DNA of 64,000 nucleotides from a virus. Its lineage: Duplodnaviria; Heunggongvirae; Uroviricota; Caudoviricetes. The stretch lies in the IMG/VR virus record IMGVR_UViG_3300028797_000113. One strand, given 5' to 3'. The notes beneath the pieces are model-generated. The model had not been told where the DNA came from. It made no database searches and was given only the letters and a program-made list of their open reading frames with translations. Made by a program: the position numbers and the translations under genes. Shown here piece by piece: positions 10,176 through 58,158 of the stretch; positions within the stretch are counted from its first letter, which is position 1, and each line of letters opens with the position of its first letter.

Positions 10176-10186
10176 AGGAGGCTGTA

Positions 10187-11013
10187 TGGCTACACCAATT
10201 ATTAAGTGGGCTGGAGGCAAACGACAGCTACTGCCAGAACTTAGAAAGAGAATGCCAAAGGAATTTAATTGGTACTATGAACCGTTTTTTGGCGGAGGCG
10301 CTTTGTTCTTTGATATTAACCCTACTGTCGCAGTTATTAATGACGCAAACATACAATTAATGAATGTGTATGAACAAATAAAAAAGAACTGGGTTAACGT
10401 ATGTTTGCAATTAACGTCATTTGAACATACCTACAACGGAATGACAGACGAAGAAGACCAACTTGAATATTATTTTAAGCTGAGAGAGATGTTTAACAAT
10501 TGTATAAAAGAGAATGAATTATCATCTCACAGTGCAGCATTGTTCATCTTCTTAAACAAGTCCGGGTATAACGGTTTGTATAGAGTGAACAAAAAAGGTG
10601 AGTTTAATGTTCCGTCAGCAAAAAAGAAAACAGTTATTTCTTTTGATGTCGGCAACATAAAAATGGCGTCTAAAGCGCTTCAAACAACTATCATGCACTC
10701 TGGAGATTTTACCTATGCTTGTCAGACCGCAAGGAAAGACGACTTTGTATTTTTTGATAGTCCATATTATGATACGTTTGATAATTACCAAGCGTCAGGG
10801 TTTACGGAAAAAGATCATTTGCGTTTGGTAAAACTGGCAGACGCACTTACCGATAGCCGAGTAAAATGGATGATGACATACAACGACTGCGATTATATAA
10901 AAGCATTATACAAAGGATATTACATTGATGAGGTTGACGTAAGACGCAACATTAATTCAGATGCAACCAAGCGGACCGGGAAAGAGATAATTATTAGAAA
11001 TTATAAGGAGTAA
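10187..11013 (+). CDS. dam: DNA adenine methyltransferase (Dam/MethyltransfD12 family)
   Basis: SD aaaggagg; N-terminal IIKWAGGKRQLLPEL and DSPYYDT (DPPY-type) motifs. Confidence 0.85.
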
Positions 11014-15779: not shown

Positions 15780-15817
15780 TTGCAATTGGTTTTATGTGTC
15801 AGGGAAAAGAGGAAAAA

Positions 15818-17296
15818 ATGGATTTCGCAAATGCTTTAAAAGAAGAAGCAAGAAAAACTTATACTGAGAATGGCGCTCAGGCATACAACACTACGTCGGA
15901 TGCTTTGTTGGACCTTTTCGGTACTATCGGTTCTTTAAGAACCAGAGATTATACGGAAATTGATACGCTTGTTGAAGAAGCGTTCAAGGTTGATCCGTTA
16001 TTCACAATGAAGATTATCTTCTACGCAAGAGACATAAGAGAGGGATGCGGCGAAAGAAAAGTCTTCAGACATATTATTAAATATATCGCAAATAAATACC
16101 CTTATGCTCTTATGAAGAACGTCATTCTTATACCGAAGTTCGGTAGATGGGATGATATGTATGAACTCGTAGGCACGCAGCTCGAAGATTTCATGTGGTC
16201 TGTAATGTACGACCAGTGGTTTAGAGACTTGGCTAACTATCAGGAAAAACAGCCTATCTCTTTACTCGCTAAATGGATTAAGACACCCGATGGTTCTTCA
16301 AAAGAAACAAGAAGACTTGGTTGTTTAACTGCTAAAAAGTTGGGCTATATTAATGCCAGTGACTTTAAGAAACAGTTAAGAGCGTTGAGAAGACACATTG
16401 ATGTTACAGAAGTTAAGATGACCGCAAACGAATGGTCTGACATTGAGTATTCAGCGGTTCCGAGTAACGCAATGACTAAATACAGACACGCATTTGACAG
16501 GCACGACAATGAAAGATTCATGTCCTTTGTTACAAGAGCCGTTAATGGCGAAGTAAAGATAAATTCATCTACACTTTATCCATACGACATCGTTGAAAAA
16601 TCATTGTATTATCAAGACAAATCAGATGTTCTTGAAGCGCAATGGAGACAGTTGCCTAATTATGTAGAACCCGGAACCAATGCAATGATAATTGCAGATG
16701 TATCTGGCTCAATGTCTGGAAGACCTATGGCAACATCAATTGGACTTGCAATGTATTTTGCAGAGAGAAATGTTGGTGCATATCATAATTTATTTATGAC
16801 GTTTTCTTCTAATCCCGAGGTTGTTACTCTTAAGGGCGACACCTTAGAACAAAAGATACAGTTTATACACAATGTAAACTGGGGCGGATCGACAAATCTC
16901 GAAGCAGCATTCAAACTTATTCTTGACATCGCCATTAAAAACAATATTCCTTCAGAGGAAATGGTTAAGTCATTAATCATCGTATCTGATATGGAAATTG
17001 ATATGGCAACATCAGGATGGGGAACTCCTACTTCATCAGAAACTTGGTCGTTCTACGATACAATGAGAAATTTATATCACAGAAACGGATATGAAATTCC
17101 TAATGTTGTGTTCTGGAATGTTAATTCAAGGCACGACGTATTCCACGTGGACGCTAAGAGAAAAGGCGTGCAGTTATGCTCAGGTTCATCTATCAATACA
17201 TTTAAACAGTTAATGGGTTGTATAGGTATGACGCCTGTTGAGATGATGAATAAAATAATCAACTCAGAAAGATACGCCGAAATAAAAATAGAATAA
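15818..17296 (+). CDS. vWA-domain protein with alpha-helical N-domain (DUF2828-like; Ro60/TROVE-like architecture)
   Basis: 492 aa; N-terminal TENGAQAYNTTSDALLDLF; MIIADVSGSMSG MIDAS motif (DxSxS) near aa 300. Confidence 0.6.
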   Translation: MDFANALKEEARKTYTENGAQAYNTTSDALLDLFGTIGSLRTRDYTEIDTLVEEAFKVDPLFTMKIIFYARDIREGCGERKVFRHIIKYIANKYPYALMKNVILIPKFGRWDDMYELVGTQLEDFMWSVMYDQWFRDLANYQEKQPISLLAKWIKTPDGSSKETRRLGCLTAKKLGYINASDFKKQLRALRRHIDVTEVKMTANEWSDIEYSAVPSNAMTKYRHAFDRHDNERFMSFVTRAVNGEVKINSSTLYPYDIVEKSLYYQDKSDVLEAQWRQLPNYVEPGTNAMIIADVSGSMSGRPMATSIGLAMYFAERNVGAYHNLFMTFSSNPEVVTLKGDTLEQKIQFIHNVNWGGSTNLEAAFKLILDIAIKNNIPSEEMVKSLIIVSDMEIDMATSGWGTPTSSETWSFYDTMRNLYHRNGYEIPNVVFWNVNSRHDVFHVDAKRKGVQLCSGSSINTFKQLMGCIGMTPVEMMNKIINSERYAEIKIE

Positions 17297-17498: not shown

Positions 17499-17571
17499 GG
17501 AGGTATAGCTCAGTTGGTAAAGCAAGTGACTGTTAGTCACTGGGTCAAAGGTTCAAGTCCTTTTATCTCCG
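17499..17571 (+). tRNA. tRNA-Asn (anticodon GTT)
   Basis: Cloverleaf folded by hand: acceptor GGAGGTA/TATCTCC, D arm GCTC-AGTTGGTAA, anticodon stem AGTGA/TCACT with loop CTGTTAG, T arm AAAGG-TTCAAGT-CCTTT. Confidence 0.8.
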
Positions 17572-17648
17572 CTCGCATAAGAGTTTTGGCTTTCTTCTTA
17601 TGCGACTAGCATCACCTCCTTTGATGCATAAAAGTATTGTTTACTCGT

Positions 17649-17877: not shown

Positions 17878-18110
17878 TTTGAGAAATCATTAGGTGAAGT
17901 AACCTTTGGCGGAGCGGTTTCCCGACTGGTAGGTAATATCTCAATTATGTGAGTGTGCAAATCCTCACCTATGCAAACGGAGTGAAGAACAAATGAATCG
18001 GCGACTCAGTGATATTGGCGCATCGGTACCGCGCCCAGCGACGGCTGCAAAATATCAGGCCAATAGCCGAGATGTGTGGCCCGTGGGTGACCTTAACCCA
18101 CACGCTCCTT

Positions 18111-18181
18111 AAGGACGTAGTTCAATGGTAGAACATCGGTCTCTAAAACTGACAATGTGTGTTCGACTCACACCGTTCTTG
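18111..18181 (+). tRNA. amber suppressor tRNA (anticodon CTA, reads UAG)
   Basis: Canonical cloverleaf: acceptor AAGGACG/CGTTCTT, D arm GTTC-AATGGTA-GAAC, anticodon stem TCGGT/ACTGA with loop CTCTAAA (T33, CTA, A37), T arm GTGTG-TTCGACT-CACAC. Confidence 0.75.
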
Positions 18182-18331
18182 GCGACTTAAATACTGTACA
18201 AGATGCCCCAATCTAATAAAAACATATCCCCCCCAGTTATGTTTGTAATCTATATGAAAAACACCACAAGTGATGTGTTCCACTCAAACACATTAACCCA
18301 TTCGAGTGTCGCAGTACAGTTGCTCGAACAT

Positions 18332-18403
18332 TGGGCTGTCGCCAAGCGGTAAGGCAACGGGTTTTGATCCCGTCATTCGCTGGTTCAAATCCAGCCAGTC
18401 CAG
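18332..18403 (+). tRNA. tRNA-Gln (anticodon TTG)
   Basis: TGGGCTG TC GCC-AAGCGGTAA-GGC A ACGGG-TTTTGAT-CCCGT CATTC GCTGG-TTCAAAT-CCAGC CAGTCCA G; nearly colinear with E. coli tRNA-Gln. Confidence 0.85.
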
Positions 18404-18438
18404 TACATTATTAAATTATATTTCAAAGGAGGAATATT

Positions 18439-20077: not shown

Positions 20078-20383
20078 ATGGTAACTACAGAAGATATGTG
20101 TTTTGGCGACTGCGGTGCACCCTGTAATACTCATTGTACTTTATACGGCAGAAGCAGAACGGTCCTGATTTGTGATAAGTGCAAAGAAGAAACAGATGAC
20201 CTCTGGCAGTTCGGAAGAAAACAGTTATGTAAACACTGTTTGTTGGATTCCTTTGCAATTACTGAAGGTAAATGTGATGAATGCCAGTGCGAAGATACAT
20301 TGTATGATGTCGAAGGTAATCTGTTATGCGAAGACTGCGTAACCGAATTTTTTGACAAGGTTAAGGAGGACGACGATCAATGA
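20078..20383 (+). CDS. multi-Cys zinc-finger protein
   Basis: SD aaggaggtt; CFGDCGAPC...CDKCKEE...CKHC...CDECQC...CEDC. Confidence 0.55.
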   Translation: MVTTEDMCFGDCGAPCNTHCTLYGRSRTVLICDKCKEETDDLWQFGRKQLCKHCLLDSFAITEGKCDECQCEDTLYDVEGNLLCEDCVTEFFDKVKEDDDQ

Positions 20384-21066
20384 ATGTCTTAGTAGTATGC
20401 GAAGAAAGCCAAAGAGTTGCCTCTGCTTTTAGAGAGCTTGGCCACAATGCTTTCTCTTGTGACATAATTGATTGTTCTGGCGGACATCCTGAATGGCATA
20501 TTAAACATGACTGCATACCATTATTGAATGGACGATGTACTTTTCAAACTTGCGACGGCAAGATGTACACTTTGCTTGGACCGTGGGACTTAATTATAGC
20601 ACATCCACCTTGCACGTTCTTAACAAACACTGGAAACAGATGGTTTGACGTTGAGAAATATGGCGAAGCAGCGATACAGAGAGAAAAAGACAGAGAAGAA
20701 GCAATTAAGTTCTTTATGACCATTGCGAATTGCGACTGCAAAAGAATAGCGATTGAAAATCCGATAGGCGTTATGAGTACACGATTTCGCAAGCCTAATC
20801 AGATTATTCATCCATATATGTTTGGTGATCCCGAGAGAAAAGCCACGTGCTTATGGCTTAAGAACTTGCCAAACTTAGAGCCTACGAACATTGTAGAGCC
20901 AAACATCATTCATTACAAGAATGGAAAAGGAACTGATTCTCCTTGGCACGTAAACACAATGTCGTTACCTAAGGAAGAGAGAACAAAAGAGAGAAGCAAA
21001 ACATTTCCGGGCATAGCCAAGGCTATTGCAGAGCAATGGGGAAAGTTAGGAGGCAATAATGAATAA
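20380..21066 (+). CDS. C5-cytosine-methyltransferase-like protein with degenerate motif I
   Basis: IAHPPCTFLT (motif IV PCQ-like), AIENPIGV (motif VI ENV-like) and N-terminal LVVCEESQRVASAFRELGHNAFSCDI in place of the FxGxGG loop; only 228 aa. Confidence 0.45.
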   Translation: MNVLVVCEESQRVASAFRELGHNAFSCDIIDCSGGHPEWHIKHDCIPLLNGRCTFQTCDGKMYTLLGPWDLIIAHPPCTFLTNTGNRWFDVEKYGEAAIQREKDREEAIKFFMTIANCDCKRIAIENPIGVMSTRFRKPNQIIHPYMFGDPERKATCLWLKNLPNLEPTNIVEPNIIHYKNGKGTDSPWHVNTMSLPKEERTKERSKTFPGIAKAIAEQWGKLGGNNE

Positions 21067-27731: not shown

Positions 27732-27991
27732 AAGATGAGATTTATTTTTCAGACGGAACGCCGTTTGAACCGCCTGAAGACCCATTATTTAAAAAATATC
27801 CACCGTGTGAGAAGTATGATTATCATTGTTGGTGTTGCTCTAAGTGTCCTCGTGGTTGGGATTGGAGCATTCCCGAAGAAGACAAAGAAATTTTTGAACA
27901 ATATCAAAAAGAATTTAACGAATATTGCGAAAGTCACGGAGGCATTGAGAACATCTTAGTTGAATTGAACTTAGAAGGAGCACAAGAATGA
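27728..27991 (+). CDS. Cys-rich small protein
   Basis: CEKYDYHCWCCSKCPRGWDW. Confidence 0.5.
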   Translation: MKDEIYFSDGTPFEPPEDPLFKKYPPCEKYDYHCWCCSKCPRGWDWSIPEEDKEIFEQYQKEFNEYCESHGGIENILVELNLEGAQE

Positions 27992-28542
27992 AAGTCGATA
28001 TATATAATACAGATAAACAATACCGTGTGATATATGCCGATCCTCCATGGAAACAATCCAAAGGCGGTAAGAAAGCGGTGAGAAAGAACAGCAGCGGAAA
28101 GCCACTTGATTATCCAGTATGTTCGATGGAAGAAATCAAAGAACATCTGAGACAAGCGGATTCCTTAACTGGCGACGATGCAATATTATTCTTATGGACT
28201 ATCGACAAATACTTGTTTGAAGCTGAAGAAATCGCAAAGTCCTTGGGATATAAACTGCACGCTCGTATGATATGGAATAAGGTCAACGGCATTCCGGCAG
28301 CGTTTACGGTGAGATATGGCCACGAATACTTGTTATATATGTATAAAGGCAAGTTAACACCAGTCGCAAGAGAAGAACGTGGAAAGATACACACCGTATT
28401 TACCGAGCAAGTAAAGAAGCACTCTCAGAAACCTGAAGAAGCATATCGAATTATTGAAAGATTATATCCACACTTCAATAAAATAGAGTTATATGCGAGA
28501 AACGAAAGAGATGGTTGGGACTGCTGGGGCGACGAAGTATAA
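27988..28542 (+). CDS. MT-A70 family N6-adenine DNA methyltransferase
   Basis: YRVIYADPPWKQ (DPPW catalytic motif) near the N-terminus; 184 aa. Confidence 0.75.
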   Translation: MKVDIYNTDKQYRVIYADPPWKQSKGGKKAVRKNSSGKPLDYPVCSMEEIKEHLRQADSLTGDDAILFLWTIDKYLFEAEEIAKSLGYKLHARMIWNKVNGIPAAFTVRYGHEYLLYMYKGKLTPVAREERGKIHTVFTEQVKKHSQKPEEAYRIIERLYPHFNKIELYARNERDGWDCWGDEV

Positions 28543-30327: not shown

Positions 30328-30552
30328 ATGATATATGTATATGAAAATGATATTTACGATAATCCGTCACGCGAAAAAATAAAATACAGTTCCGAACACA
30401 TACCGAGAGTCGGAGAAATTTTACACTTTCCACATATTGGTGGCTTTAAAGTTAAAGATGTTGCTTACGAAATATCTGATGACAGCGAAGAGAATACAAT
30501 AATGTGGGTTGAAGTATATGTTGATAAACTGAAAGGAGAAAACAAAAAATGA
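30328..30552 (+). CDS. hypothetical protein
   Basis: Junction motif gaactgaaaggagaacagaaATG; 74 aa. Confidence 0.5.
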   Translation: MIYVYENDIYDNPSREKIKYSSEHIPRVGEILHFPHIGGFKVKDVAYEISDDSEENTIMWVEVYVDKLKGENKK

Positions 30553-31565
30553 TGAACGGAAGATATACTTATGATGACTTCGAAAGAATGCGTGAGCAAG
30601 ACAAAAAGGAAGGAGACTCTATAGCCAAAAGGGTGTTGAGATATATTGGTTATGGCATAATCAGTGTGATTATTGTTTTAGTAATAGTATGCCTTTTTAG
30701 TTGCTTCTATTCAGTGGATGAACAGCACAACGCAATAATCACCCAGTTCGGACAGATTGTCAAAGTGAACACCGCTGGATTTTATTTTAAAGCGCCATGG
30801 CAGTCGGTTAAGAAAGTAGACATGACCACTCATGGCACATCTATAGGATATGTAATTGAAGATGATTCACAGAAAGGATCATATCCCGTAGACGAAGCGA
30901 ACGGCATAATGATAACTTCGGACTTTAATCTTTTAAATATAGACTTTTATATTGAATACAGAGTGTCAGACCCGGTCGCTTATGTTTATAATTCCAAAGA
31001 ACCCGAAGCCGTGTTAACAAACATAGCATTAGCGAATATTCGTACCATAGTTTCAAATTATACGGTTGACGAAGCTATGACTACGGGTAAAAATCAAATT
31101 CAGGCAGACATTAAATCGGCTATTCTCGATTCGCTTGAAACAAGAAATCTTGGATTATCAGTTGTAAATATAACCATTCAGGATTCCAGACCTCCCGTTG
31201 AAAGCGTAGAGTCTGCATTCAAAGCTGTTGAAACCGCAAAGCAAGGTGCCGATACTGCAATGAATAATGCTCTTCAATATCAGAACAGCGAGATACCCGC
31301 CGCAGACGCTAAGGCCGATGCAATCATCCAGCAGGCAGAAGCCAAAAAGACATCAAGAATTGCTGAAGCCACTGGTCAGGTTGAAAGATTTAATCAAATG
31401 TATGGACAGTATAAGCAGTTCCCTTTTACAACAAAAAAGAGACTGTTCTATGAGAAGTTAGAAGAAGTAATTCCGGGTTGCAAGATTATTATTACCGACG
31501 GCTCTACAGAAACGATGTACCCTTTGGAATCATTTATTAGCACCGAAACGGAAGGAGAACAATAA
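30549..31565 (+). CDS. hflK: SPFH/band-7 protein, HflK-like
   Basis: N-terminal TM; YSVDEQHNAIITQFGQIVKVNTAGFYFKAPWQSV SPFH core; coiled-coil Ala/Gln-rich C-terminal half. Confidence 0.75.
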   Translation: MMNGRYTYDDFERMREQDKKEGDSIAKRVLRYIGYGIISVIIVLVIVCLFSCFYSVDEQHNAIITQFGQIVKVNTAGFYFKAPWQSVKKVDMTTHGTSIGYVIEDDSQKGSYPVDEANGIMITSDFNLLNIDFYIEYRVSDPVAYVYNSKEPEAVLTNIALANIRTIVSNYTVDEAMTTGKNQIQADIKSAILDSLETRNLGLSVVNITIQDSRPPVESVESAFKAVETAKQGADTAMNNALQYQNSEIPAADAKADAIIQQAEAKKTSRIAEATGQVERFNQMYGQYKQFPFTTKKRLFYEKLEEVIPGCKIIITDGSTETMYPLESFISTETEGEQ

Positions 31566-32464
31566 TGAATAATCTTAAAAAGAAATTAATTATATTATTA
31601 TCGGTTATGAGCGTGGGCTTTGTTGTGTTGTTATTATTAGGTATCATCACATTCTTTTCTTCAACATACACGGTTAAACCCAATGAAACTGCCATCGTTG
31701 TACGATTAGGCAAGGCTCAATCATCAGTAAATACCGCCGGACTTCACTTCCACGCACCGTTTATTGAGAGTACAACGAAGATTTATACTGGCGATATGCT
31801 TTATGACATTCCTGTATCGGATGTTATTACGGCTGACAAGAAAACAATGATCGCTGACTGTTATGTTATTTGGTCGGTAACTGATTCTGTCAAATATTAT
31901 CAGACGCTAGGTGCCATTCAGGGAAGAGGAGAAGAAAGGGTTGAAGCGGCCGTATTTAATGCCGTTAAGAATACCATCTCTTCAATGACTCAGGACAACA
32001 TTATCGCCTCCAGAGGTTCAACACTTACGGATGAAATTACCACAGCGTCCAACTCGGATATATCACAGTATGGTATCACTATTGAGTTGGCAGAGATCAA
32101 AACTCTTGATTTACCAGACGATAATAAAAATGCGGTTTACGAGAGAATGATTTCGGAAAGAAATAACATTGCCGCAGGCTATACCGCTAAAGGCGATGCT
32201 GAAGCACAGAAGATTAAGAACAATACAGACAAGCAAGTATCTATTACTGTAGCAAATGCCGAAGCCGAAGCAGCCAAAATCGAAGCGGAAGGCGAAGCTG
32301 AGTATATGAAAATCTTGTCGGATGCCTATAACGACCCCGACAAAGCAGACTTCTACAATTTTGTAAGAAGTCTTGACGCTCTCAATTCTCTTAAGAGCAG
32401 CGATGCAACAATTATTTTAGATAAAGATTCTGAATATGCCCGAATACTTTACGGCGCAGAATAA
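31565..32464 (+). CDS. hflC: SPFH/band-7 protein, HflC-like
   Basis: N-terminal TM; YTVKPNETAIVVRLGKAQSSVNTAGLHFHAPFIEST; ATGA-coupled to the hflK-like gene. Confidence 0.75.
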   Translation: MNNLKKKLIILLSVMSVGFVVLLLLGIITFFSSTYTVKPNETAIVVRLGKAQSSVNTAGLHFHAPFIESTTKIYTGDMLYDIPVSDVITADKKTMIADCYVIWSVTDSVKYYQTLGAIQGRGEERVEAAVFNAVKNTISSMTQDNIIASRGSTLTDEITTASNSDISQYGITIELAEIKTLDLPDDNKNAVYERMISERNNIAAGYTAKGDAEAQKIKNNTDKQVSITVANAEAEAAKIEAEGEAEYMKILSDAYNDPDKADFYNFVRSLDALNSLKSSDATIILDKDSEYARILYGAE

Positions 32465-39339: not shown

Positions 39340-39590
39340 CAAATCAAGAAGCAATAGAAGTATTAAAGTTAAACAATCCGTTTATGGCGGGCAAAGATAA
39401 AGAAAACTTTTCAAAGGCGATTGATAAAGGCATAGAAGCACTTGAGAATCAGAAGATAGGACATTGGATAAAAGACGAAATGAGCATAATGTTTGACATT
39501 TGGGTATGTTCTGAATGTGGCGGTGGTGGAGATAAACATTTTAAATATTGTCCTCATTGTGGGGCAAAGATGGAAGGAGAGAAGAAATGA
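39336..39590 (+). CDS. mosaic small protein (EAIEVL...GIEALENQK N-module plus GHWI...CPHCGAKMEGEKK zinc ribbon)
   Basis: Modules as described above. Confidence 0.55.
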   Translation: MTNQEAIEVLKLNNPFMAGKDKENFSKAIDKGIEALENQKIGHWIKDEMSIMFDIWVCSECGGGGDKHFKYCPHCGAKMEGEKK

Positions 39591-40534
39591 GAACAATAAC
39601 AAAAACACATACAGGAATCATCGTTTCAGATGAGGAATTAAAACTGGAATATCTTTACGTGGGAGATTACGGCAAGGAAAACAACATCAAGGCAGACTTC
39701 CTTGGTTATAACAAGAGAATTGATAAGGTCGAACATAAAGACGTCGACATAACCGATAAGCTGGTTGTTACGGTGTCTTCTCAAAAGGGTTGCCCTATGA
39801 AGTGCGACTTTTGTGACTGTCCTAAATATGGTTATCACGGTAATGCTTCGTTGGGTGAGTTAATGTCTGAGATTTCAACCGCCGTATCGTTGTCCGGGAT
39901 TCAACACGGTAAGAGATTGAATATCCACTTCGCAAGGATGGGAGAACCTACATTCAATCCGAATGTTATTCAGGCAGCGAGAATAGCCTATTATACTTTC
40001 AAGAGACAGTTTGACGAATATCATCCCGTCGTATCTACAATGTGTCCAAAGAGCAATAAAAACTTGGCAGACTTTTTATACAAATGGGTAGATGCAGGTT
40101 ATGTGTTTGGTGGTGACGACGGTTACGGCCTTCAGTTTTCTATTAACACTCTCGACGAAGAAGCTCGTAATAAAGCATTTAATAATATGTCTCTTTCTTT
40201 ACAGGAAATCGGCGATTTAATCCAAGAGTTACCCGACCCGAAGAAAAGAAAATTTACTCTGAACTTTGCCGTAACATCCGAAAGCAATCTTGATCCGGTC
40301 CTTATGGATAAATACTTTGACAAAGAAAAATGTATCGTAAAGATTACGCCTATTCACGAAACCTTTGAAGCCATCAGTAATGGCTATGAAATCATAAAGA
40401 GTTTTGATGTGTATGAGAAGTTTGAAAAGCCACTTGTCGACGCTGGCTGGGACGTTATCGTATTTGTTCCTTCGGAAGAAGAAGACGCCGACAGAATCAC
40501 TTGTGGAAATTCGTTAATCGCAAAGGAGGGTTAG
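39587..40534 (+). CDS. RlmN/Cfr-family radical-SAM RNA methyltransferase homologue
   Basis: VVTVSSQKGCPMKCDFC (Cx3Cx2C cluster in RlmN-like VSSQxGC context), FARMGEPTFNP (MGMGEPL-like) and C-terminal DADRITCGNSLIA (DIDAACGQL-like). Confidence 0.7.
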   Translation: MRTITKTHTGIIVSDEELKLEYLYVGDYGKENNIKADFLGYNKRIDKVEHKDVDITDKLVVTVSSQKGCPMKCDFCDCPKYGYHGNASLGELMSEISTAVSLSGIQHGKRLNIHFARMGEPTFNPNVIQAARIAYYTFKRQFDEYHPVVSTMCPKSNKNLADFLYKWVDAGYVFGGDDGYGLQFSINTLDEEARNKAFNNMSLSLQEIGDLIQELPDPKKRKFTLNFAVTSESNLDPVLMDKYFDKEKCIVKITPIHETFEAISNGYEIIKSFDVYEKFEKPLVDAGWDVIVFVPSEEEDADRITCGNSLIAKEG

Positions 40535-46236: not shown

Positions 46237-46400
46237 GTTTTGTAGAAGATTTAATTTCTGAAATGAACAAAGTCAAAGTCTATGACGTAGTAGACAATGA
46301 CAAGCCTATCAAAACGATAGAATGTAGTGTCGTATGCGACATCATCACGGTACTTTTAGACAAGTACGGAATTGGGGTGGACAATGATTTACATGGATAA
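46233..46400 (+). CDS. hypothetical small protein (55 aa, not in ORF track)
   Basis: ATG overlapping upstream stop; overlaps the NifS-like start. Confidence 0.3.
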   Translation: MSFVEDLISEMNKVKVYDVVDNDKPIKTIECSVVCDIITVLLDKYGIGVDNDLHG

Positions 46401-47484
46401 TGCAGCCACCAATATGGGCAACATAGGAATTTTTAATATTAACAGTCCGTATGCGGACAATAGTGAATTTGAAAACGCAAGAAAGCGCATAGCAAATTGT
46501 TTGAGATTAAAAGTAGAAAATATTTATTTTACTTCCGGCGGTTGTGAAGCAAACTCGTGGGCATTGCAAAGATGCGGTTGCAAAACAATTATTACAACCA
46601 AAATCGAGCATCCCTCTGTACTGAAATGTTGTGAGTGGTTAAGTAAGAACGGATATAATGTCATTTATCTTGACGTTGACAGATATGGCAGGATTGATGT
46701 GCTTGAACTTGACCGAACTTTATCGAAGATTACATTAGCGCCTACGCTCGTTTCGATTATGGCAGTCAATAATGAGATAGGTACGGTTCAAGACTTGAAG
46801 GCCATTAGAAAAGTTATTGATTATCACAACGAATTACGACAAAGAGCAAGTACAGAAACGGGAACCAATTTCTGTGAGCCTATTTATTTTCACTCGGATT
46901 GTGTACAAGCAATAGGACATTTAAAACTTCCTTACGACTGTTTGGATATGTTCTCTGCTTCGGGCCATAAATTTGGTTTTAATTTCGGTGTTGGCTTTTT
47001 ATATAGCCGAATCCCCATTCAGCCATTGATATTCGGTGGTTCACAAGAGAAAGGCTTAAGGGGAGGCACATCAAATGCAAAAGCCGTAATCGAAATGGCA
47101 GACAGCCTGACAGACAACTACCAAAACGGCAAGAGACTTCGCAAGGATGAAGAGCTTGTTGCGTACTTAAGGACATCCCTTCAGAAATTCGACGTAGTAT
47201 TTAATACTCCACCGCATTGTTTATCAAGTATATTATCTGTTTCTTTTAAAAATATTGATTCAGAAAAATTAATGATGTTCTTAAAGGATTTCGACATATT
47301 TGTTTCAGCAGGCAGTGCTTGTGCCGCGGATCACAAAGAACCATCACACGTACTCAAGGCTATCGGAGTTCCTAAAGATTATATCCACGGAACAATCCGT
47401 TTCTCGCTTTCGTCAAAACTTACTTCAAAAGAAGATATTGACCAAGTGATGAGCCTAATAAAACAGTTTTTGGAGAATCAATAA
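46384..47484 (+). CDS. cysteine desulfurase (NifS/IscS-like, class-V aminotransferase)
   Basis: IYMDNAATN start, SASGHKFGFNFGVGFLY PLP-lysine motif, C-terminal SAGSACAA active-site Cys loop. Confidence 0.8.
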   Translation: MIYMDNAATNMGNIGIFNINSPYADNSEFENARKRIANCLRLKVENIYFTSGGCEANSWALQRCGCKTIITTKIEHPSVLKCCEWLSKNGYNVIYLDVDRYGRIDVLELDRTLSKITLAPTLVSIMAVNNEIGTVQDLKAIRKVIDYHNELRQRASTETGTNFCEPIYFHSDCVQAIGHLKLPYDCLDMFSASGHKFGFNFGVGFLYSRIPIQPLIFGGSQEKGLRGGTSNAKAVIEMADSLTDNYQNGKRLRKDEELVAYLRTSLQKFDVVFNTPPHCLSSILSVSFKNIDSEKLMMFLKDFDIFVSAGSACAADHKEPSHVLKAIGVPKDYIHGTIRFSLSSKLTSKEDIDQVMSLIKQFLENQ

Positions 47485-53082: not shown

Positions 53083-55215
53083 TTAAATAAAGTTAAGTAA
53101 GCAAGTATATTTAGGAGGGACTTCAGAGCCGGGAGCAAGATTTGCCCAATCCCAATATAAATATACTATGCAGTTATTCGTGCCTGTATATGTTCCAGCC
53201 CAACTAAAGTACGGAGTTCCATTAGAGTTAAAATTCTGAACGTAGTCTTGATAATTACAAGGACCCCAGATGCCTCGGAAATTTCCTGAAACATATCCAT
53301 CGCTTGCTCCAAAGAGCCAAGCGGCATTGGATGGACTCGGTCCTCCTGCTCCTTCTATTGTGTGAAAACAAATCTCAACATTGTATTCGTAATTATAGGT
53401 TCGGTAAGGGTAATAAGTTTGCGTAAAATTATACCATACCGTTGCATTATTGAGCATATTAATATGAAACAATGTGTCTCCATAAGATACCACACGACCA
53501 TATTCATCACACTGAGCTGGGGTTAAGCCAGTTACATCAGGACTATAAAGCAATGGGTCTCTACGTGGTATAGGTTTGAAAAGACCACCATTAACCAAGT
53601 CATAAAAATCCAATACGTCTGCCTGTATGGTTATGTTTCGTATTTTTGTGTTCTGGCACGCACGGAAAATTCGGTTACAATTAGGACCAAACACAACTTC
53701 GGGAATATGCAAATTGCAAGAATTTAAAAATACATTTCTGGCATTGCGAAGATTAGTAAGAGGCAGTGTAATGTGCTGATTTAAATTTCCACAGTTCTCA
53801 AACATTCCGTTGACTTCTATAACAGATTCTGGTATCTGAATGTTTTGGTTGAGACTGTGACAATTTTGGAACATATTTACGCATCGCTCCAAAGTGCTTG
53901 GCAATCCAATATTCTGGTTGAAAGCATCACAATATGAAAACATATAGGAACTGTCTATTAAATTCGCACTTAAATGTATATTCTGATTGAGATTATCGCA
54001 ATCATAAAAACAAGAGGTTGCATACGTGACAGTGTCTGGTATATAAATATTTTGGTCAAGACTCGAACAATGAGAAAACGCCGAGTACATTTGTTCTACT
54101 CCCACTGGTATTTGCAAATTTTGATTGAATCTTGAGCAATAACTGAAAGTTCCTTCCATCCTTTTTAACGAACTCGGTAATGTTAACAATGTATTAAAAT
54201 TATAACAACTGCTAAAGGTAGATTGCATAACCTCTACAGTGCTCGGCAATCCGATAACACAATTCAGATTGATACAATCTTCAAAAGTTGCCCATAAATT
54301 CTCAACGCCTTCAGGAAATGAAATAGGGTAATTGAAATTACGACAGTTCCCTAATACTGAACCAATACCTAACCATCCTGATTCAAACACAACATCTGAA
54401 TTAAAACTCGGACATGATGAAAACAATCCATTGGAGTTCCAAATGTGGTCAAATGAACTACTACCCCTGCACACAGGAACAAAAAACGGCTTATTCAAAT
54501 TAATACAATTAGCGAACATATAAGTAATTTCCGAATTGCGAGGAATCGGAACGGTCACATTAAGATTTCCACAATAACAAAAACAATCAGCAGCGTTGAT
54601 GTTATCTGGCATATGGATTGCTTGATTAAAATTACTGCATCCATAAAAACAACTATACATACAATTAACAGTATCTGGAATTTGTATATTTCGATTCAAG
54701 TTGTTACAACCATAAAACGCAGATGCCATATTCTGAGGATGAGTACCATCCATAAAACGAATATCGCCATTAAATCCACTCATATAAGAAAAGGCATAAC
54801 TGTAGTTGTTAGGCTCTCCAGTTCCAGTAGTCGCATACACATTTACATTGGCGGTATAATTGCTACAGCCGTTTAATATATAACCATATGCTATTGCGCT
54901 CTCAGGAATATTTATGTCTTGATTGAAGTTAATACAATTAGAGAACATATAGTTCAATGCTCGCAAATTCTGATGATGTGGGTCTATAGATATAGGTGCA
55001 TTAAGATTTTGACATTCATAAAACATATCCATCGAAGACATAACACAATCGGGAACAGCAAACGGAGCATTGTAGTTTCTGCAATTCGCAAAAATCCACT
55101 CTGCTCTATTGGAAACTATATGCGATTGGTAATCATAATAACCAGTAAACCCGACATTGCTTCCCAGATTCATAGAGAAACTATCTTGATTTAAGTTATC
55201 AATAAAATAGCCCAT
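53083..55215 (-). CDS. BspA-type leucine-rich-repeat fibre / receptor-binding protein
   Basis: 710 aa; repeats such as QNIQIPESVIEVNGMFENCGNLNQHITLP. Confidence 0.65.
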   Translation of the reverse strand: MGYFIDNLNQDSFSMNLGSNVGFTGYYDYQSHIVSNRAEWIFANCRNYNAPFAVPDCVMSSMDMFYECQNLNAPISIDPHHQNLRALNYMFSNCINFNQDINIPESAIAYGYILNGCSNYTANVNVYATTGTGEPNNYSYAFSYMSGFNGDIRFMDGTHPQNMASAFYGCNNLNRNIQIPDTVNCMYSCFYGCSNFNQAIHMPDNINAADCFCYCGNLNVTVPIPRNSEITYMFANCINLNKPFFVPVCRGSSSFDHIWNSNGLFSSCPSFNSDVVFESGWLGIGSVLGNCRNFNYPISFPEGVENLWATFEDCINLNCVIGLPSTVEVMQSTFSSCYNFNTLLTLPSSLKRMEGTFSYCSRFNQNLQIPVGVEQMYSAFSHCSSLDQNIYIPDTVTYATSCFYDCDNLNQNIHLSANLIDSSYMFSYCDAFNQNIGLPSTLERCVNMFQNCHSLNQNIQIPESVIEVNGMFENCGNLNQHITLPLTNLRNARNVFLNSCNLHIPEVVFGPNCNRIFRACQNTKIRNITIQADVLDFYDLVNGGLFKPIPRRDPLLYSPDVTGLTPAQCDEYGRVVSYGDTLFHINMLNNATVWYNFTQTYYPYRTYNYEYNVEICFHTIEGAGGPSPSNAAWLFGASDGYVSGNFRGIWGPCNYQDYVQNFNSNGTPYFSWAGTYTGTNNCIVYLYWDWANLAPGSEVPPKYTCLLNFI

Positions 55216-55230
55216 AGTTAGTCCTCCTTT

Positions 55231-55977
55231 CTACCAGTCCCACATATCTGTGACTATCACAACAGGATAGCCATCTAGTGTGTCTGGAATATAAATATCT
55301 AAATTGCCAAAAGCCGCCAACCATTCATCTCTTTTAACAGACGTCACCCACGCCTTGCCTTCTTCGATAGTGTAATTAAAGAAGTTTTCATAAGCGGGAG
55401 GCATAACCAATTGAAGAAGCCTTCGTCTTAACAGATTGAGTTGCGCGCTCATTAGTTTGTCAGGGTTGAACACGGGAACAGGAGGTGGCGTACCGTAGTT
55501 AATAGCATTCTCAATTCCAGTTCCGTTTGTTTTGTAAGCGGTTAATTCTGCATTTGTTTCAAATATCGGGATATTCGTCGATAAAATGCACTGGTCCATT
55601 GTCTTGACCAAGTCTTTCCAACAATACACATTTGCAGGCAACGCCGAACAATTATCTCGCGTGACTAACGTAATAGCGCTGTAGCTTGCCGGACTTGAGC
55701 CTTCTCTATTTTGAGTATAGATTCTGGGATTGCTTATAAACGCACCTCTTTGTATAATTTCTTGCATTGAAAATCCCAGTCGGCCAGTTATAGTACCACT
55801 CACCGTGTCGCATTGTGACATACTATAATCGTCATCATATTCTCTCATTTTATAACGAAAATACACCCGAGGATCGTTAATGTAATCCTCGCCTGTACAA
55901 AGAAATTCATCCGTGGATACGGTTATGGTGCTACTGTAACCACACCCTGTGGTTACTGAATAATCAAAATGAGCCAT
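55231..55977 (-). CDS. fibre-associated protein (B part)
   Basis: 248 aa; C-terminus DEWLAAFGNLDIYIPDTLDGYPVV; ends TAG, in frame with downstream ATG. Confidence 0.55.
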   Translation of the reverse strand: MAHFDYSVTTGCGYSSTITVSTDEFLCTGEDYINDPRVYFRYKMREYDDDYSMSQCDTVSGTITGRLGFSMQEIIQRGAFISNPRIYTQNREGSSPASYSAITLVTRDNCSALPANVYCWKDLVKTMDQCILSTNIPIFETNAELTAYKTNGTGIENAINYGTPPPVPVFNPDKLMSAQLNLLRRRLLQLVMPPAYENFFNYTIEEGKAWVTSVKRDEWLAAFGNLDIYIPDTLDGYPVVIVTDMWDW

Positions 55978-56895: not shown

Positions 56896-57336
56896 TCAAG
56901 CGGTTCTCGTAATACGAACGGAACCATTATTTACGTTGATTGTCGGTGTGGGGGTTGCTTCTTCTGACACGTAGCGCACCGCTACGGTGAAACAACAACC
57001 GCGAGGGACTGTTATCGAAGTTGTACTGGTCAAATTTCCAAGGGTGTCTACATCAATGGGTGAATAGGTAGCAATACTTTCTTCCTTTACTTCTCCATTT
57101 TCCGTAATTCCAATCGAGATAGGCACTGCATCAGCAGCGTCTTCGGGGATTGAAACATTACCATTGAAAGTGACAATATATCTTGCGAAACAGTTATTTG
57201 TGATTCCTCTGAGAATAAAAATTCCTGAACCATCTTCGTGATAAATACCACCATTGGTACAAGGAATAGATGCGTTAAACGGAATGGCGCTATTTAAAGC
57301 GACACTGACCGGGTTATTAGCAATATATTCTGCCAT
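56896..57336 (-). CDS. beta-rich structural protein (possible fibre tip or exosporium-like domain)
   Basis: 146 aa, Thr/Ser/Asn/Gly/Ile-rich, CC pair. Confidence 0.45.
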   Translation of the reverse strand: MAEYIANNPVSVALNSAIPFNASIPCTNGGIYHEDGSGIFILRGITNNCFARYIVTFNGNVSIPEDAADAVPISIGITENGEVKEESIATYSPIDVDTLGNLTSTTSITVPRGCCFTVAVRYVSEEATPTPTINVNNGSVRITRTA

Positions 57337-57348
57337 AGGATCACCCCC

Positions 57349-58158
57349 CTACATACCACATCCACATCCACCGTTAGAACAGGAGAAGATATTTGTCTTT
57401 CCATATACGGGAACTGCGGGTACGGGACAGTTAGATAATCTTGTATATAAGTTATCTACAACATTATTCTGTGACTGAATAAGTTGTGCTGTTTGTGCAG
57501 TCTGTGATGCATTAAGGGTTGCCATATTAAGTTGTGTTCTGAGATTGTCATTCTCTCTCTTGAAACCGTCTAACTCCAAAGCACATAACTTGTCCAAAAT
57601 GGCCTGCGTATTAGCCGTATTACTTGCTATGATATTGCGAACGCCATCTGTGACCGCTGCCCTGTCTGCACAGTTTTCCGTTGCAACAGTATATTTCAGG
57701 TCTCCAATATTTGCTCTGTTTTCGCAGCAACAATTCTGAAGGCTCATTGCAAGTGTGTTTAACTGTCCTGAGAGTGCCTGACTATCTGCATATCTCTGGT
57801 TCATAGAAGCAATTTGATTGGTGTATGCGGTCTGCATAGCGTCCATTGCTCTGTTGCAATCTGATATCTCAGAAGTTGCAAAACCATTAGAGATTGATGT
57901 TTGAATGCCATTTAACTGGCTTGAAATACTTGCGGTATCAAAGCCTCTGTTAACGTCATTCTGGGTTGCTGTATTCCACATATAAGGAAGAACGCCTTCG
58001 TTACCGCCAAAGCCACCGCCGAATCCGTTACCCCATCCACCCATCAGAGCGAAAAGGAAAAGAATTACAAACCAGCCGCCGAAGCCGTCGCCGAAACCAC
58101 CGTTACTACCACACATAGGAGATACAGGCATAATCATGTTTTGATTGTCTGATAACAT
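57349..58158 (-). CDS. Gly/Cys-rich membrane protein
   Basis: GGFGDGFGGWFVILFLFALMGGWGNGFGGGFGG, NCCCENR, C-terminal CSNGGCGCGM; Gln/Asn/Thr-rich coiled middle. Confidence 0.5.
   Translation of the reverse strand: MLSDNQNMIMPVSPMCGSNGGFGDGFGGWFVILFLFALMGGWGNGFGGGFGGNEGVLPYMWNTATQNDVNRGFDTASISSQLNGIQTSISNGFATSEISDCNRAMDAMQTAYTNQIASMNQRYADSQALSGQLNTLAMSLQNCCCENRANIGDLKYTVATENCADRAAVTDGVRNIIASNTANTQAILDKLCALELDGFKRENDNLRTQLNMATLNASQTAQTAQLIQSQNNVVDNLYTRLSNCPVPAVPVYGKTNIFSCSNGGCGCGM

What the first reader, a model, noticed from the sequence alone, without database searches (positions are those of the whole stretch)
39587..40534. Phage-encoded RlmN/Cfr-like radical-SAM RNA methyltransferase lacking the usual resolving cysteine
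The 316-aa ORF has the RlmN/Cfr hallmarks. These are a Cx3Cx2C cluster embedded in VSSQxGC, an MGEP SAM-binding motif, and the conserved C-terminal CG(Q/N)L methyl-carrier cysteine. RlmN/Cfr enzymes methylate C2/C8 of A2503 in 23S rRNA, and RlmN also methylates A37 of tRNA. Cfr confers multi-drug ribosome resistance. As I recall the alignment, the conserved Cys seven residues upstream of the first cluster Cys (C118 in E. coli RlmN) is Thr here, and an extra CDC follows the cluster. A phage copy would mean the phage edits host rRNA or tRNA, or its own tRNAs.
Basis: partly seen in the sequence, partly recalled or inferred. Interest (0 to 1): 0.8.

Follow-up and report, generated by a model that had tools for sequence, protein, structure and literature searches.

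The report
Phage RlmN-like enzyme missing one cysteine
This phage gene encodes an uncharacterised, stripped-down cousin of the RNA methylases RlmN and Cfr that has lost the cysteine they need to finish their reaction, and gene neighbourhoods in related loci point away from ribosomal RNA or tRNA and, tentatively, towards NAD-type nucleotides.

Summary
ORF 39587-40534 (+, 315 aa) is an intact phage gene with the CxxxCxxC cluster in VSSQKGC, RMGEP, a C-terminal TCGN cysteine, and Thr where RlmN has Cys118.

A 41-sequence family profile matches only RlmN and Cfr among solved structures (E about 1e-20, whole core). A pLDDT-90 model finds RlmN first.

It is not a member of the curated RlmN or Cfr families:
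- It scores 44 bits against a cutoff of 290.
- It lacks about 55 residues of RlmN's N-terminal region.
- No sequence in its clade has the resolving Cys; Asp77 and Arg117 come with that loss.

It belongs to a large, mostly phage-borne family. A sister clade keeps both cysteines and often sits beside the NAD salvage genes NadM and NadV. Relatives in the window's own clade occur in three settings:
- inside a pncB-pncA-X-nadE-nrtR operon;
- fused to an ECF transporter component and an MTA/SAH nucleosidase;
- in cassettes with a cysteine hydrolase and a ferredoxin-reductase-like flavoprotein.

tRNA genes are rarely adjacent.

Best reading: a class-A radical-SAM one-carbon transferase that uses methyl-Cys306 and an external thiol, acting on a non-ribosomal, possibly NAD/ADP-ribose-type substrate. 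The substrate is not established.

The parts
39587..40534 (+). Gene for a 315-aa class-A-like (RlmN/Cfr-type) radical SAM enzyme, 'mini-RlmN' clade B; the stop codon is TAG.
39770..39772 (+). Thr62 codon, the position equivalent to the resolving Cys118 of E. coli RlmN. It is never Cys in 243 family sequences and is Thr in 80 of 80 clade-B viral loci.
39791..39817 (+). C69-x3-C73-x2-C76 [4Fe-4S]/SAM cluster motif followed by the clade-specific Asp77.
39935..39949 (+). R117-MGEP SAM-binding motif. Arg replaces the Gly or Ser of RlmN and clade A and is invariant in clade B.
40502..40507 (+). C306-G307 on the C-terminal loop, aligned to the RlmN Cys355 methyl carrier.
30549..32464 (+). Two tandem SPFH/Band_7 genes. 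They are a recurrent partner of this family in phages (immediately downstream in 24 of 80 viral loci) but lie 7 kb upstream here. A functional link is only inferred.
46393..47484 (+). NifS/DndA-like cysteine desulfurase, a possible Fe-S supply for the radical SAM enzyme. This is inference only, and the gene is not shared by other phages that carry the family.

Best explanation
Shown: the gene encodes an intact radical SAM enzyme of a large, uncharacterised, mostly phage-borne sister family of RlmN and Cfr, here called mini-RlmN. It has the radical SAM barrel plus a C-terminal loop cysteine and lacks about 55 residues of RlmN's N-terminal region. It belongs to clade B, which has lost the resolving cysteine (Thr62) and fixed Asp77 and Arg117 in the active-site motifs. 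Inferred: it still does class-A chemistry. Cys306 is methylated by one SAM. A second SAM is cleaved at the [4Fe-4S] cluster. The 5'-deoxyadenosyl radical turns methyl-Cys306 into a thiomethylene radical, which adds to an sp2 carbon next to a ring nitrogen. With no internal second Cys, the enzyme-CH2-substrate thioether must be released by an external thiol or reductant from the host, such as thioredoxin or a low-molecular-weight thiol, or by chemistry that uses Asp77. More speculative: the substrate is probably not 23S A2503 or tRNA A37. It may be a nucleotide-like small molecule of the NAD/ADP-ribose pool, attacked on the adenine or pyridinium ring, as part of the phage's handling of host NAD metabolism or NAD-based defence. 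My sub-confidences are: family placement 0.95; one-carbon transfer via Cys306 0.55; non-ribosomal substrate 0.6; NAD/ADP-ribose-type substrate 0.3.
For: Homology and fold. The family profile hits only RlmN and Cfr (E 1.6e-21 to 8.7e-20 over the full core). The AlphaFold model has pLDDT 90. The top ten Foldseek PDB hits are all RlmN-family radical SAM methyltransferase chains (E 5e-11 to 1e-8, TM 0.60-0.65), and the next is MgmA at 6.6e-5.

Conservation. C69, C73, C76, RMGEP, N124, S185, R194 and C306-G307 are invariant or nearly so.

Clade signatures. Clade B is 80 of 80 Thr, CxxCD, RMGEP and CGN. Clade A is 71 of 71 Cys, 70 of 71 CxxCG, 70 of 71 SMGEP and 70 of 71 CGQ. The two clades are related at hhalign probability 99.8.

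A methylase-type product profile is suggested by the fusion to a bona fide MTA/SAH nucleosidase (223.9 bits against a cutoff of 169).

A small-molecule substrate is suggested by three findings: fusions to a QueT-type ECF S-component; fusions or operons with an isochorismatase-family hydrolase that keeps its Asp, Lys and Cys; and a TrxR-like flavoprotein partner in which 17 of 19 lack a CxxC motif and none has it conserved, which makes it a likely electron donor.

NAD link:
- A pncB-pncA-rSAM-nadE-DUF5662-nrtR operon in 3 gut alphaproteobacterial MAG loci (L014, L015, L055), with partial versions in 2 more (L017, L053).
- Clade-B phage locus L093 has PncA, DUF5662, PncB, NadD-like and NadE 3-7 kb downstream.
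- An rSAM followed by an NMNAT-like gene in L172.
- Vibrio phage PS17B-2 has PRPP synthase, NAMPT and then the rSAM.
- In clade A, 31 of 71 loci have an NAD gene within 8 kb and 17 within 600 bp. By my reading of their sequence motifs, neighbours also include Macro and NADAR domain proteins.
- A published survey reports NadV in 22-33% of medium and jumbo phages (PMC9503650). Random placement would put it within 2 kb in roughly 1% of loci.
Against: No NAD or ADP-ribose gene lies in the 64-kb window or in about 10 kb beyond each end. In clade-B viral loci, NAD genes are within 10 kb in 22 of 80 but never adjacent, and many of those loci are related phages. No neighbour is shared by all loci. Phage accessory regions gather unrelated auxiliary genes, so adjacency is weak evidence. 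Radical SAM methylases are slow, so conversion of a millimolar NAD pool is implausible. Without the resolving Cys, methyl transfer itself is unproven, and no activity was measured. Some homologues lie among tRNA genes (Stenotrophomonas phage ANB28) or near FolE or QueE-like genes.
Confidence: 0.4

Rival explanations
1. It is a true RNA methyltransferase like RlmN or Cfr. It would make m2A or m8A on host 23S rRNA A2503 or on A37 of host or phage tRNAs, recognising RNA with the core barrel alone and using a host thiol in place of Cys118.
For: RlmN and Cfr are the only characterised relatives. The phage encodes tRNAs, including Gln(TTG) and a CTA suppressor. Homologues sit among tRNA genes in Stenotrophomonas phage ANB28 and about 4 kb from a tRNA cluster in Pectobacterium phage Arno162.
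Against: About 55 residues of RlmN's N-terminal region are absent. Scores are far below the curated cutoffs. The phage-clade proteins are acidic. tRNA genes lie within 2 kb in only 3 of 80 clade-B and 4 of 80 clade-A loci. Relatives are fused to a transporter component, a nucleosidase or a hydrolase. RlmN is widespread in bacteria (my own knowledge), so a host probably already has it. The resolving Cys is missing.
Confidence: 0.2
2. It is a 7-deazapurine salvage enzyme related to queuine lyase QueL, which converts queuine to preQ1. It would supply preQ1 for tRNA or phage DNA modification.
For: Relatives at 36-41% identity are fused to a QueT-family S-component that passes Pfam's cutoff (37 to 50 bits against 33.7) and, in three of the five, also to a nucleosidase. 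This mirrors the C. difficile queK-qrtT-queL operon of hydrolase, ECF-S component and radical SAM enzyme (PMC11477304; PMC11130926). A FolE gene or a QueE-like gene lies 4-5 kb from homologues in two phages.
Against: No preQ1 riboswitch was found by Rfam at gathering threshold across the four fusion-gene loci, nor in a relaxed search upstream of one of them. No TGT or DpdA, QueK, QueC or QueD was found in the window stretches with Pfam annotation or among the neighbours sampled. The fused nucleosidase is a bona fide MTA/SAH nucleosidase. QueL is catalogued only under the generic IPR006638 family, with no RlmN-type family listed. The reading does not explain the NAD neighbourhoods. The QueL sequence could not be obtained, so direct homology is untested.
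Confidence: 0.1
3. It C-methylates adenine in phage DNA as an anti-restriction modification.
For: The gene lies in the replication and early region beside the DnaE-type polymerase. DNA methyltransferases are frequent neighbours: in the window, in L093, and immediately downstream in about 10 viral loci.
Against: No DNA-binding domain was found. The protein is acidic. Cellular relatives are in metabolic operons and fusions. A slow radical enzyme is ill suited to genome-wide modification. No C2- or C8-methyl-deoxyadenosine is known in DNA (my own knowledge).
Confidence: 0.08
4. It is a single-turnover trap. Lacking the resolving Cys, it would cross-link itself covalently to its nucleic-acid target, as the RlmN C118A mutant does, and so disable a host RNA.
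For: RlmN C118A is crystallised cross-linked to tRNA (PDB 5HR6 and 5HR7). No other conserved Cys exists in the clade.
Against: The same clade includes cellular genes in operons with a dedicated reductase and a hydrolase, which implies turnover. The stoichiometric cost would be high, and the N-terminal region that in RlmN is implicated in RNA binding (my own knowledge) is missing.
Confidence: 0.04

Closest known systems
RlmN (dual-specificity 23S rRNA A2503 / tRNA A37 C2-methyltransferase; PDB 3RF9, 5HR7, 6FZ6)
   Same: The radical SAM barrel is shared. So are the xSSQxGC-x3-C-x2-C cluster context, the MGEP SAM motif, the LxxSxxxxxxxxR and K-x-x-P-x-N motifs, and the C-terminal loop Cys-Gly equivalent to Cys355. 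It is the best sequence-profile and fold match.
   Different: Foldseek identity is about 17-18%. About 55 N-terminal residues are missing. Cys118 is replaced by Thr. Asp follows the third cluster Cys, and Arg precedes MGEP. It scores 44 bits against a cutoff of 290. It is phage-borne, and its genomic contexts are metabolic rather than translational.
Cfr (23S rRNA A2503 C8-methyltransferase; PDB 9P0P)
   Same: It has the same class-A architecture and is matched over the full core at E 8.7e-20 by the family profile.
   Different: The differences are the same as for RlmN. The Cfr models score 21-25 bits against cutoffs of 468-550. Nothing suggests an antibiotic-resistance role.
Phage mini-RlmN clade A (for example the Vibrio phage PS17B-2 protein CAM0110987.1 and Salmonella phage Arash gp133c); uncharacterised
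   Same: It has the same short architecture, is phage-borne, and matches at hhalign probability 99.8. Both clades occur next to Preiss-Handler NAD modules in gut phages.
   Different: Clade A keeps both catalytic cysteines and has SMGEP, CxxCG and CGQ. It is much closer to RlmN (E 3e-19 with a single sequence). It often lies directly between or beside NadM and NadV.
QueL, queuine lyase of C. difficile (radical SAM; Yuan et al. 2019, cited through PMC11130926)
   Same: It is a radical SAM enzyme tied to an ECF S-component and a nucleoside hydrolase, which parallels the QueT-rSAM-nucleosidase fusions in clade B.
   Different: No sequence comparison was possible. No Q-salvage genes or riboswitch were found around family members. 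The fused nucleosidase is of the MTA/SAH type.
Phage NAD salvage by NadV plus NadM/NatV (KVP40-type, 'NARP2'-like)
   Same: This is the genomic setting of many family members: NadM, NadV, PncA, PncB, NadD, NadE and, by my reading of sequence motifs, Macro and NADAR genes.
   Different: No radical SAM component has been described for these pathways. The 2022 survey of phage NAD-ADP-ribose systems never uses the word 'radical'. The window itself has no such genes.

Membership tests
RlmN/Cfr (class A radical SAM methylases) | CxxxCxxC radical SAM cluster within the SSQxGC context, plus the GEP SAM-binding motif | tested here: met
   VSSQKGC69PMKC73DFC76 and RMGEP; these columns are invariant in the family.
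RlmN/Cfr (class A radical SAM methylases) | C-terminal loop cysteine that carries the methyl group (Cys355 in E. coli RlmN) | tested here: met
   C306-G307 aligns to the RlmN 'aaCGQL'. CG[NQ] is present in all 80 clade-B and all 71 clade-A viral sequences.
RlmN/Cfr (class A radical SAM methylases) | Resolving cysteine seven residues before the first cluster Cys (Cys118 in E. coli RlmN) | tested here: not met
   Thr62. None of 243 family sequences has Cys there, and it is Thr in 80 of 80 clade-B loci.
RlmN/Cfr (class A radical SAM methylases) | N-terminal accessory domain (helix-hairpin-helix-like), implicated in RNA binding (my own knowledge) | tested here: not met
   Query residue 48 aligns to RlmN residue 104. 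The 47 N-terminal residues of the model are mainly beta strands.
RlmN/Cfr (class A radical SAM methylases) | Score at or above the curated family cutoffs (TIGR00048, NF008396, TIGR04432, NF000424) | tested here: not met
   44.3 against 290; 30.3 against 633; 21.2 against 550; 24.7 against 530 bits.
RlmN/Cfr (class A radical SAM methylases) | Fold of the radical SAM core with the C-terminal extension | tested here: met
   Foldseek top hits are RlmN 5HR7 and 3RFA at E 5e-11 to 1e-10 and TM 0.65. The next family is at E 6.6e-5.
RlmN/Cfr (class A radical SAM methylases) | Formation of m2A or m8A at 23S A2503 or tRNA A37 | not testable with these tools
   This needs biochemistry or RNA mass spectrometry.
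QueL queuine lyase | Sequence homology to C. difficile QueL (Q186P0 / YP_001088187.1) | not testable with these tools
   The accession was found, but no tool could retrieve the sequence.
QueL queuine lyase | Genomic linkage to queuosine salvage (QueK, QrtT/QueT, TGT, preQ1 riboswitch) | tested here: inconclusive
   QueT-type domain fusions occur in Firmicutes relatives. No preQ1 riboswitch and no QueK or TGT were found in the loci inspected.
Phage mini-RlmN family (PHROG 24834 and relatives; uncharacterised) | Full-length match to the family | tested here: met
   phrog_24834 at E 1.1e-74 over residues 16-312. More than 7,377 homologues were found, in 669 clusters at 50% identity.
Phage mini-RlmN family (PHROG 24834 and relatives; uncharacterised) | Clade-B signature: Thr or another non-Cys residue at position -7, CxxCD, RMGEP | tested here: met

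The most novel reading that the evidence does not exclude
Phage mini-RlmN enzymes are radical SAM C-methylases of nucleotides rather than of rRNA or tRNA. They would methylate the adenine C2 or C8, or the pyridinium ring, of NAD+, an NAD precursor or an ADP-ribose-derived immune signal. That would make them a third, overlooked component of phage NAD-reconstitution and anti-NADase modules. The window's clade B would do this without an internal resolving cysteine, borrowing a host thiol.
Probability: 0.2. Interest if true: 0.85.

Novelty: new variant of a known kind. Interest (0 to 1): 0.62.

Why it matters
Class-A radical SAM methylases are known from two RNA enzymes, RlmN and Cfr (my own knowledge). 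Their mechanism rests on two cysteines. Here is a very abundant phage family: more than 7,000 homologues of this protein alone, found in gut phages, marine vibriophages, jumbo phages and a roughly 636-kb contig that looks like a megaphage. It keeps the methyl-carrier Cys but, in one whole clade, not the resolving one.

That gives a natural test of how the enzyme-substrate cross-link can be resolved. The two-cysteine sister clade often sits between the NAD salvage genes NadM and NadV, a position not mentioned in a dedicated survey of phage NAD systems. This suggests an unknown step in the phage-host conflict over NAD.

Databases currently label these proteins '23S rRNA (adenine2503-C2)-methyltransferase' or even 'prohibitin family protein'. 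Both labels are probably wrong and could be misread as antibiotic-resistance (Cfr-like) genes in viromes.

Tried and rejected
- Single-sequence AlphaFold gave pLDDT 31 and was useless. It was redone with an alignment.
- The afdb50 fold library was not available.
- A megablast of 20 kb of the window against isolate phages found nothing.
- PADLOC found no defence-system model for the enzyme, its cassette partners or the SPFH genes.
- Rfam found no riboswitch in 14 related loci or upstream of a fusion gene, and only three tRNAs in the window.
- The QueL lead could not be closed. The PNAS paper and the MMBR review are not held. The accession was found but the sequence could not be retrieved. PDB 9CG2, which bears QueL's generic name, turned out to be a DUF512 cobalamin-binding protein.
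- Literature searches for a radical SAM enzyme together with phage NAD salvage returned nothing.
- I considered that the TrxR-like partner reduces an intermolecular disulfide and rejected it, because no CxxC motif is conserved in these proteins; 17 of 19 have none.
- I considered that the NifS-like gene is a general partner and rejected it, because it occurs only in this phage.
- Long 'fused' ORFs in the viral sets are upstream-start or read-through artefacts.
- Source names for cluster members gave only propagated RlmN labels.
Full report
**1.

The ORF list gives 39548..40534 on the + strand. The ATG at 39587 has a GGAG about 9 nt upstream and overlaps the stop of the preceding ORF as ATGA. 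Four independent metagenome contigs (17 to 130 kb) carry a gene call with exactly this 315-aa product.

Translation shows:
- T62-V-S-S-Q-K-G-C69-P-M-K-C73-D-F-C76-D77-C78
- R117-M-G-E-P
- I-T-C306-G-N-S-L-I-A-K-E-G-stop

The window is a phage. It carries a DnaE-type polymerase, primase-helicase, Erf, integrase, DNA methyltransferases and a tail fibre. An identical gene sits on an IMG/VR viral contig. A 20-kb stretch around the gene has no close DNA match among isolate phages.

**2. What it is related to**

With the single sequence, the similarity to known families is weak and covers only the N-terminal half:

| Search | Result |
|---|---|
| Pfam Radical_SAM | 21.7 bits, below the gathering score |
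| NCBIfam RlmN TIGR00048 | 44.3 bits against a cutoff of 290; residues 46-151 only |
| PDB phmmer, RlmN | E 7e-7; residues 48-135 |
| PHROGs phrog_24834 (unknown function) | E 1e-74 |

The family itself is very large. The 5.8-billion-protein collection holds more than 7,377 homologues, and the best 120 are 73-92% identical. The 50%-clustered library holds 669 clusters.

A 41-sequence alignment (A2) turns the weak hit into a clear one. Its profile matches S. thermophilus RlmN (6FZ6, E 1.6e-21), E. coli RlmN (3e-20) and Cfr (9P0P, 8.7e-20) over positions 48-312, which is the whole core including the C-terminal 'CGQ'. The next radical SAM protein scores E 0.11.

AlphaFold2 with this alignment gives pLDDT 90 and pTM 0.90. 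Foldseek against the PDB returns ten RlmN-family chains first (E 5e-11 to 1e-8, TM 0.60-0.65), then MgmA at 6.6e-5. So RlmN and Cfr are specifically the closest characterised relatives.

**3. Why it is not an RlmN or Cfr**

- It fails all curated cutoffs by five- to twenty-five-fold.
- Query residue 48 aligns to RlmN residue 104. RlmN therefore has 103 residues before the aligned core against 47 here, and those 47 are mainly beta strands in the model. From my own knowledge, the N-terminal region of RlmN is a helix-hairpin-helix-like accessory domain implicated in RNA binding.
- Thr62 sits opposite Cys118. This is a property of the family, not an accident of this gene. None of 243 family sequences carrying the cluster motif has Cys at that position: 189 have Thr, 23 Ile and 9 Asn.
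- The only invariant cysteines are the three cluster ligands; C306 is nearly invariant.

**4. Two clades**

Aligning homologues from isolate phages and a second IMG/VR scan revealed a sister clade, here called clade A. It occurs in phages of Vibrio, Salmonella (Arash), Aeromonas, Xanthomonas and Stenotrophomonas, and in many environmental jumbo phages.

| Feature | Clade A (71 loci) | Clade B (80 loci; the window's clade) |
|---|---|---|
| Position 7 before the first cluster Cys | Cys, 71 of 71 | Thr, 80 of 80 |
| After the third cluster Cys | Gly (CxxCG), 70 of 71 | Asp (CxxCD), 80 of 80 |
| Before MGEP | Ser (SMGEP), 70 of 71 | Arg (RMGEP), 80 of 80 |
| C-terminal Cys motif | CGQ, 70 of 71 | CGN, 80 of 80 |

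Clade A is equally short, because its residue 5 aligns to RlmN residue 83, and it is much closer to RlmN (E 3e-19 with one sequence). It is clearly homologous to the window's family (hhalign probability 99.8, E 2e-29). Since RlmN, Cfr and clade A all have the second Cys, its absence in clade B is most simply a loss. That loss came with two active-site substitutions, Asp77 and Arg117.

A third group (Pectobacterium Arno162, Vibrio D479) lacks the C-terminal part altogether as annotated.

**5. Gene context in phages of the window's clade**

In 80 viral loci, no neighbour is universal; the commonest neighbour family is present in 24.

- *SPFH.* An SPFH/Band_7 gene lies immediately downstream in 24 of 80 loci, in two groups of related phages. 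The window itself has two SPFH genes 7 kb upstream. In Xanthomonas phage JGB6 the homologue is even annotated 'prohibitin family protein' between SPFH fragments. I cannot explain this link.
- *tRNA.* tRNA genes lie within 2 kb in only 3 of 80 loci.
- *NifS.* The NifS-like gene of the window is not shared by other phages.
- *Other recurrent neighbours.* These are an antirepressor, an integrase, MazF-like toxins, DNA methylases and metallophosphoesterases, which is typical accessory-region content.

**6. Gene context in cells: fusions and operons within clade B**

- *Firmicutes fusions.* Proteins of 586-937 aa join a QueT-type ECF S-component to the rSAM domain, and three of the five also carry a PNP_UDP_1 domain. 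In P0140 that domain passes the MTA/SAH nucleosidase equivalog cutoffs (223.9 against 169; 172.6 against 73.8 bits). From general knowledge, class-A methylases release both SAH and 5'-deoxyadenosine, and this nucleosidase clears both. The fusion therefore fits methylase stoichiometry, and the transporter domain argues for a small-molecule substrate.
- *Three-gene cassette.* In a distant branch (about 30% identity; Elusimicrobia, Bacteroidales, Chloroflexota, archaea) the cassette is isochorismatase-family hydrolase, TrxR-like flavoprotein, then rSAM. The parts are sometimes fused. Seventeen of the 19 flavoproteins have no CxxC motif and none has it conserved, so they look like ferredoxin-reductase-type electron donors. 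The hydrolases keep the Asp, Lys and Cys positions.
- *NAD operon.* In gut alphaproteobacterial MAGs, at 55% identity to the window protein, the gene sits inside pncB-pncA-rSAM-nadE-DUF5662-nrtR in three loci (L014, L015, L055), with partial versions in two more (L017, L053). In other MAGs it is a stand-alone gene next to a resolvase.

**7. The NAD thread**

The same theme recurs independently in several places:

- Clade-B phage locus L093 has PncA, DUF5662, PncB, NadD-like and NadE 3-7 kb downstream.
- Thirteen clade-B viral loci have an NMNAT-like gene within 10 kb.
- Locus L172 has the rSAM directly followed by an NMNAT-like gene.
- In Vibrio phage PS17B-2 the order is PRPP synthase, NAMPT, rSAM.

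Across clade A, 31 of 71 loci have an NAD gene within 8 kb, 22 within 2 kb and 17 within 600 bp. The typical arrangement is NadM (NMNAT-Nudix) just upstream and NadV just downstream. By my reading of their sequence motifs, other neighbours are Macro, NADAR, a deoxyribosyltransferase-like protein and metallophosphoesterases.

A dedicated survey reports NadV in 22-33% of medium and jumbo phages (PMC9503650). Random placement in genomes of 100-150 kb would therefore put it within 2 kb in about 1% of loci. That survey never mentions a radical SAM enzyme, and my literature searches found none.

For clade B the signal is weaker. Twenty-two of 80 loci have an NAD gene within 10 kb, 4 within 2 kb and none adjacent. 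The window and about 10 kb beyond each end have no NAD or ADP-ribose gene.

**8. How it most likely works**

*Established for RlmN (general knowledge; the PDB entry titles show the C118A cross-link).* Cys355 is methylated by one SAM. A second SAM yields the 5'-deoxyadenosyl radical, which abstracts hydrogen from the methyl-Cys. The thiomethylene radical adds to adenine C2. Cys118 then resolves the protein-substrate thioether, and without it the enzyme stays cross-linked.

*Inferred here.* C306, the cluster, the SAM motifs and the fold are all conserved under strong selection, so the first steps are probably retained. Resolution must come from outside, from a host thiol or thioredoxin, or from Asp77-assisted chemistry.

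*Speculative.* An alpha-thio radical adds readily to electron-poor N-heteroaromatic rings, so the adenine or pyridinium ring of an NAD/ADP-ribose-type nucleotide would be chemically suitable and would fit the contexts. The slow turnover of such enzymes argues against bulk NAD conversion and for a low-abundance target. None of this was measured.

**9. Rivals**

- *Canonical RNA methylation (0.2).* It is favoured only by homology and by occasional proximity to tRNA genes.
- *QueL-like lyase (0.1).* It is suggested by the QueT fusions, which mirror the queK-qrtT-queL operon. It could not be tested directly, lacks riboswitch or TGT support, and does not explain the NAD contexts.
- *DNA C-methylation (0.08) and a suicide cross-linker (0.04).* Both remain possible.
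- *A decaying relic.* This is excluded by the conservation across thousands of sequences.

**10. Verdict**

The gene is a real, intact phage gene of a very large uncharacterised sister family of RlmN and Cfr. The RNA-methyltransferase label is unproven and, on context, less likely than a non-ribosomal substrate.

I rate it a new variant of a known kind, with moderately high interest. The mechanism question (class-A chemistry without the resolving Cys) and the NAD-module association of the sister clade are both directly testable.

Noticed in passing
window 18110-18183 (+), with 17499-17572 and 18331-18404: The window has a tRNA with anticodon CTA (amber suppressor; ARAGORN labels it 'Pyl') between tRNA-Asn(GTT) and tRNA-Gln(TTG). 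TAG ends 12 of 103 ORFs. Reading through a single TAG would fuse the late-strand ORFs 53083-55977 (-) into 965 aa and 56896-58158 (-) into 421 aa. This may be late-gene TAG recoding, as reported in some gut phages.
   Followed up: partly
window 15794-17296 (+): A 500-aa protein matches phrog_850 'RNA-binding protein' (E 7e-139) and, by eye, has a vWA-like DVSGSM motif. It lies directly upstream of the tRNA cluster and may be a Ro/TROVE-like protein. Rfam finds no Y-RNA-like partner.
   Followed up: partly
window 46393-47484 (+): The phage encodes a NifS/DndA-like cysteine desulfurase (250.6 bits to TIGR03402, below the cutoff; Pfam Aminotran_5), followed by a SleB-type cell-wall hydrolase. It could supply sulfur for Fe-S clusters or for thiolation. 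Only this phage among the rSAM-bearing loci has it.
   Followed up: partly
window 30549-31565 and 31565-32464 (+): Two tandem SPFH/Band_7 genes, which PHROGs calls 'lipoprotein'. SPFH genes lie immediately downstream of the rSAM gene in 24 of 80 related viral loci and flank it in Xanthomonas phage JGB6. The association is unexplained.
   Followed up: partly
L180-L259 (IMG/VR loci), L175 (Vibrio phage PS17B-2, 4155-7846): A two-cysteine mini-RlmN clade sits between or beside NadM (NMNAT-Nudix) and NadV (NAMPT) in many phages. Neighbours that I identified by sequence motifs include Macro, NADAR and metallophosphoesterase genes. This radical SAM component of phage NAD loci is absent from the published survey PMC9503650.
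   Followed up: partly
L093 13814-17465: A gut phage carries a complete Preiss-Handler NAD route (PncA, DUF5662, PncB, NadD-like, NadE). DUF5662 recurs in the bacterial pncB-pncA-rSAM-nadE-DUF5662-nrtR operon, so it is probably an NAD-related protein of unknown role.
   Followed up: partly
L170 (ENA scaffold of 635,939 bp): A clade-B homologue (the P0128 cluster, 137 members) lies on a contig of about 636 kb. The 19 kb inspected around it carries gyrase/topoisomerase IV, ParB-HNH and IF3 genes and otherwise unannotated genes. It looks like a megaphage.
   Followed up: no
window 10117-11013, 20380-21066, 27988-28542 (+): Three DNA methyltransferase-like genes lie in one phage window. The first is a DNA methyltransferase (phrog_56) whose metagenome gene call carries the Dam-type MethyltransfD12 domain. 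The second is a short protein with a PPC motif that I judged C5-like by eye. The third carries an MT-A70 domain.
   Followed up: no
L161 (Xanthomonas phage JGB6), L178 (Stenotrophomonas phage ANB28), JGI names: Public annotations of this family are inconsistent and probably wrong. They include 'prohibitin family protein', 'ribosomal RNA large subunit methyltransferase N' and '23S rRNA (adenine2503-C2)-methyltransferase'.
   Followed up: yes
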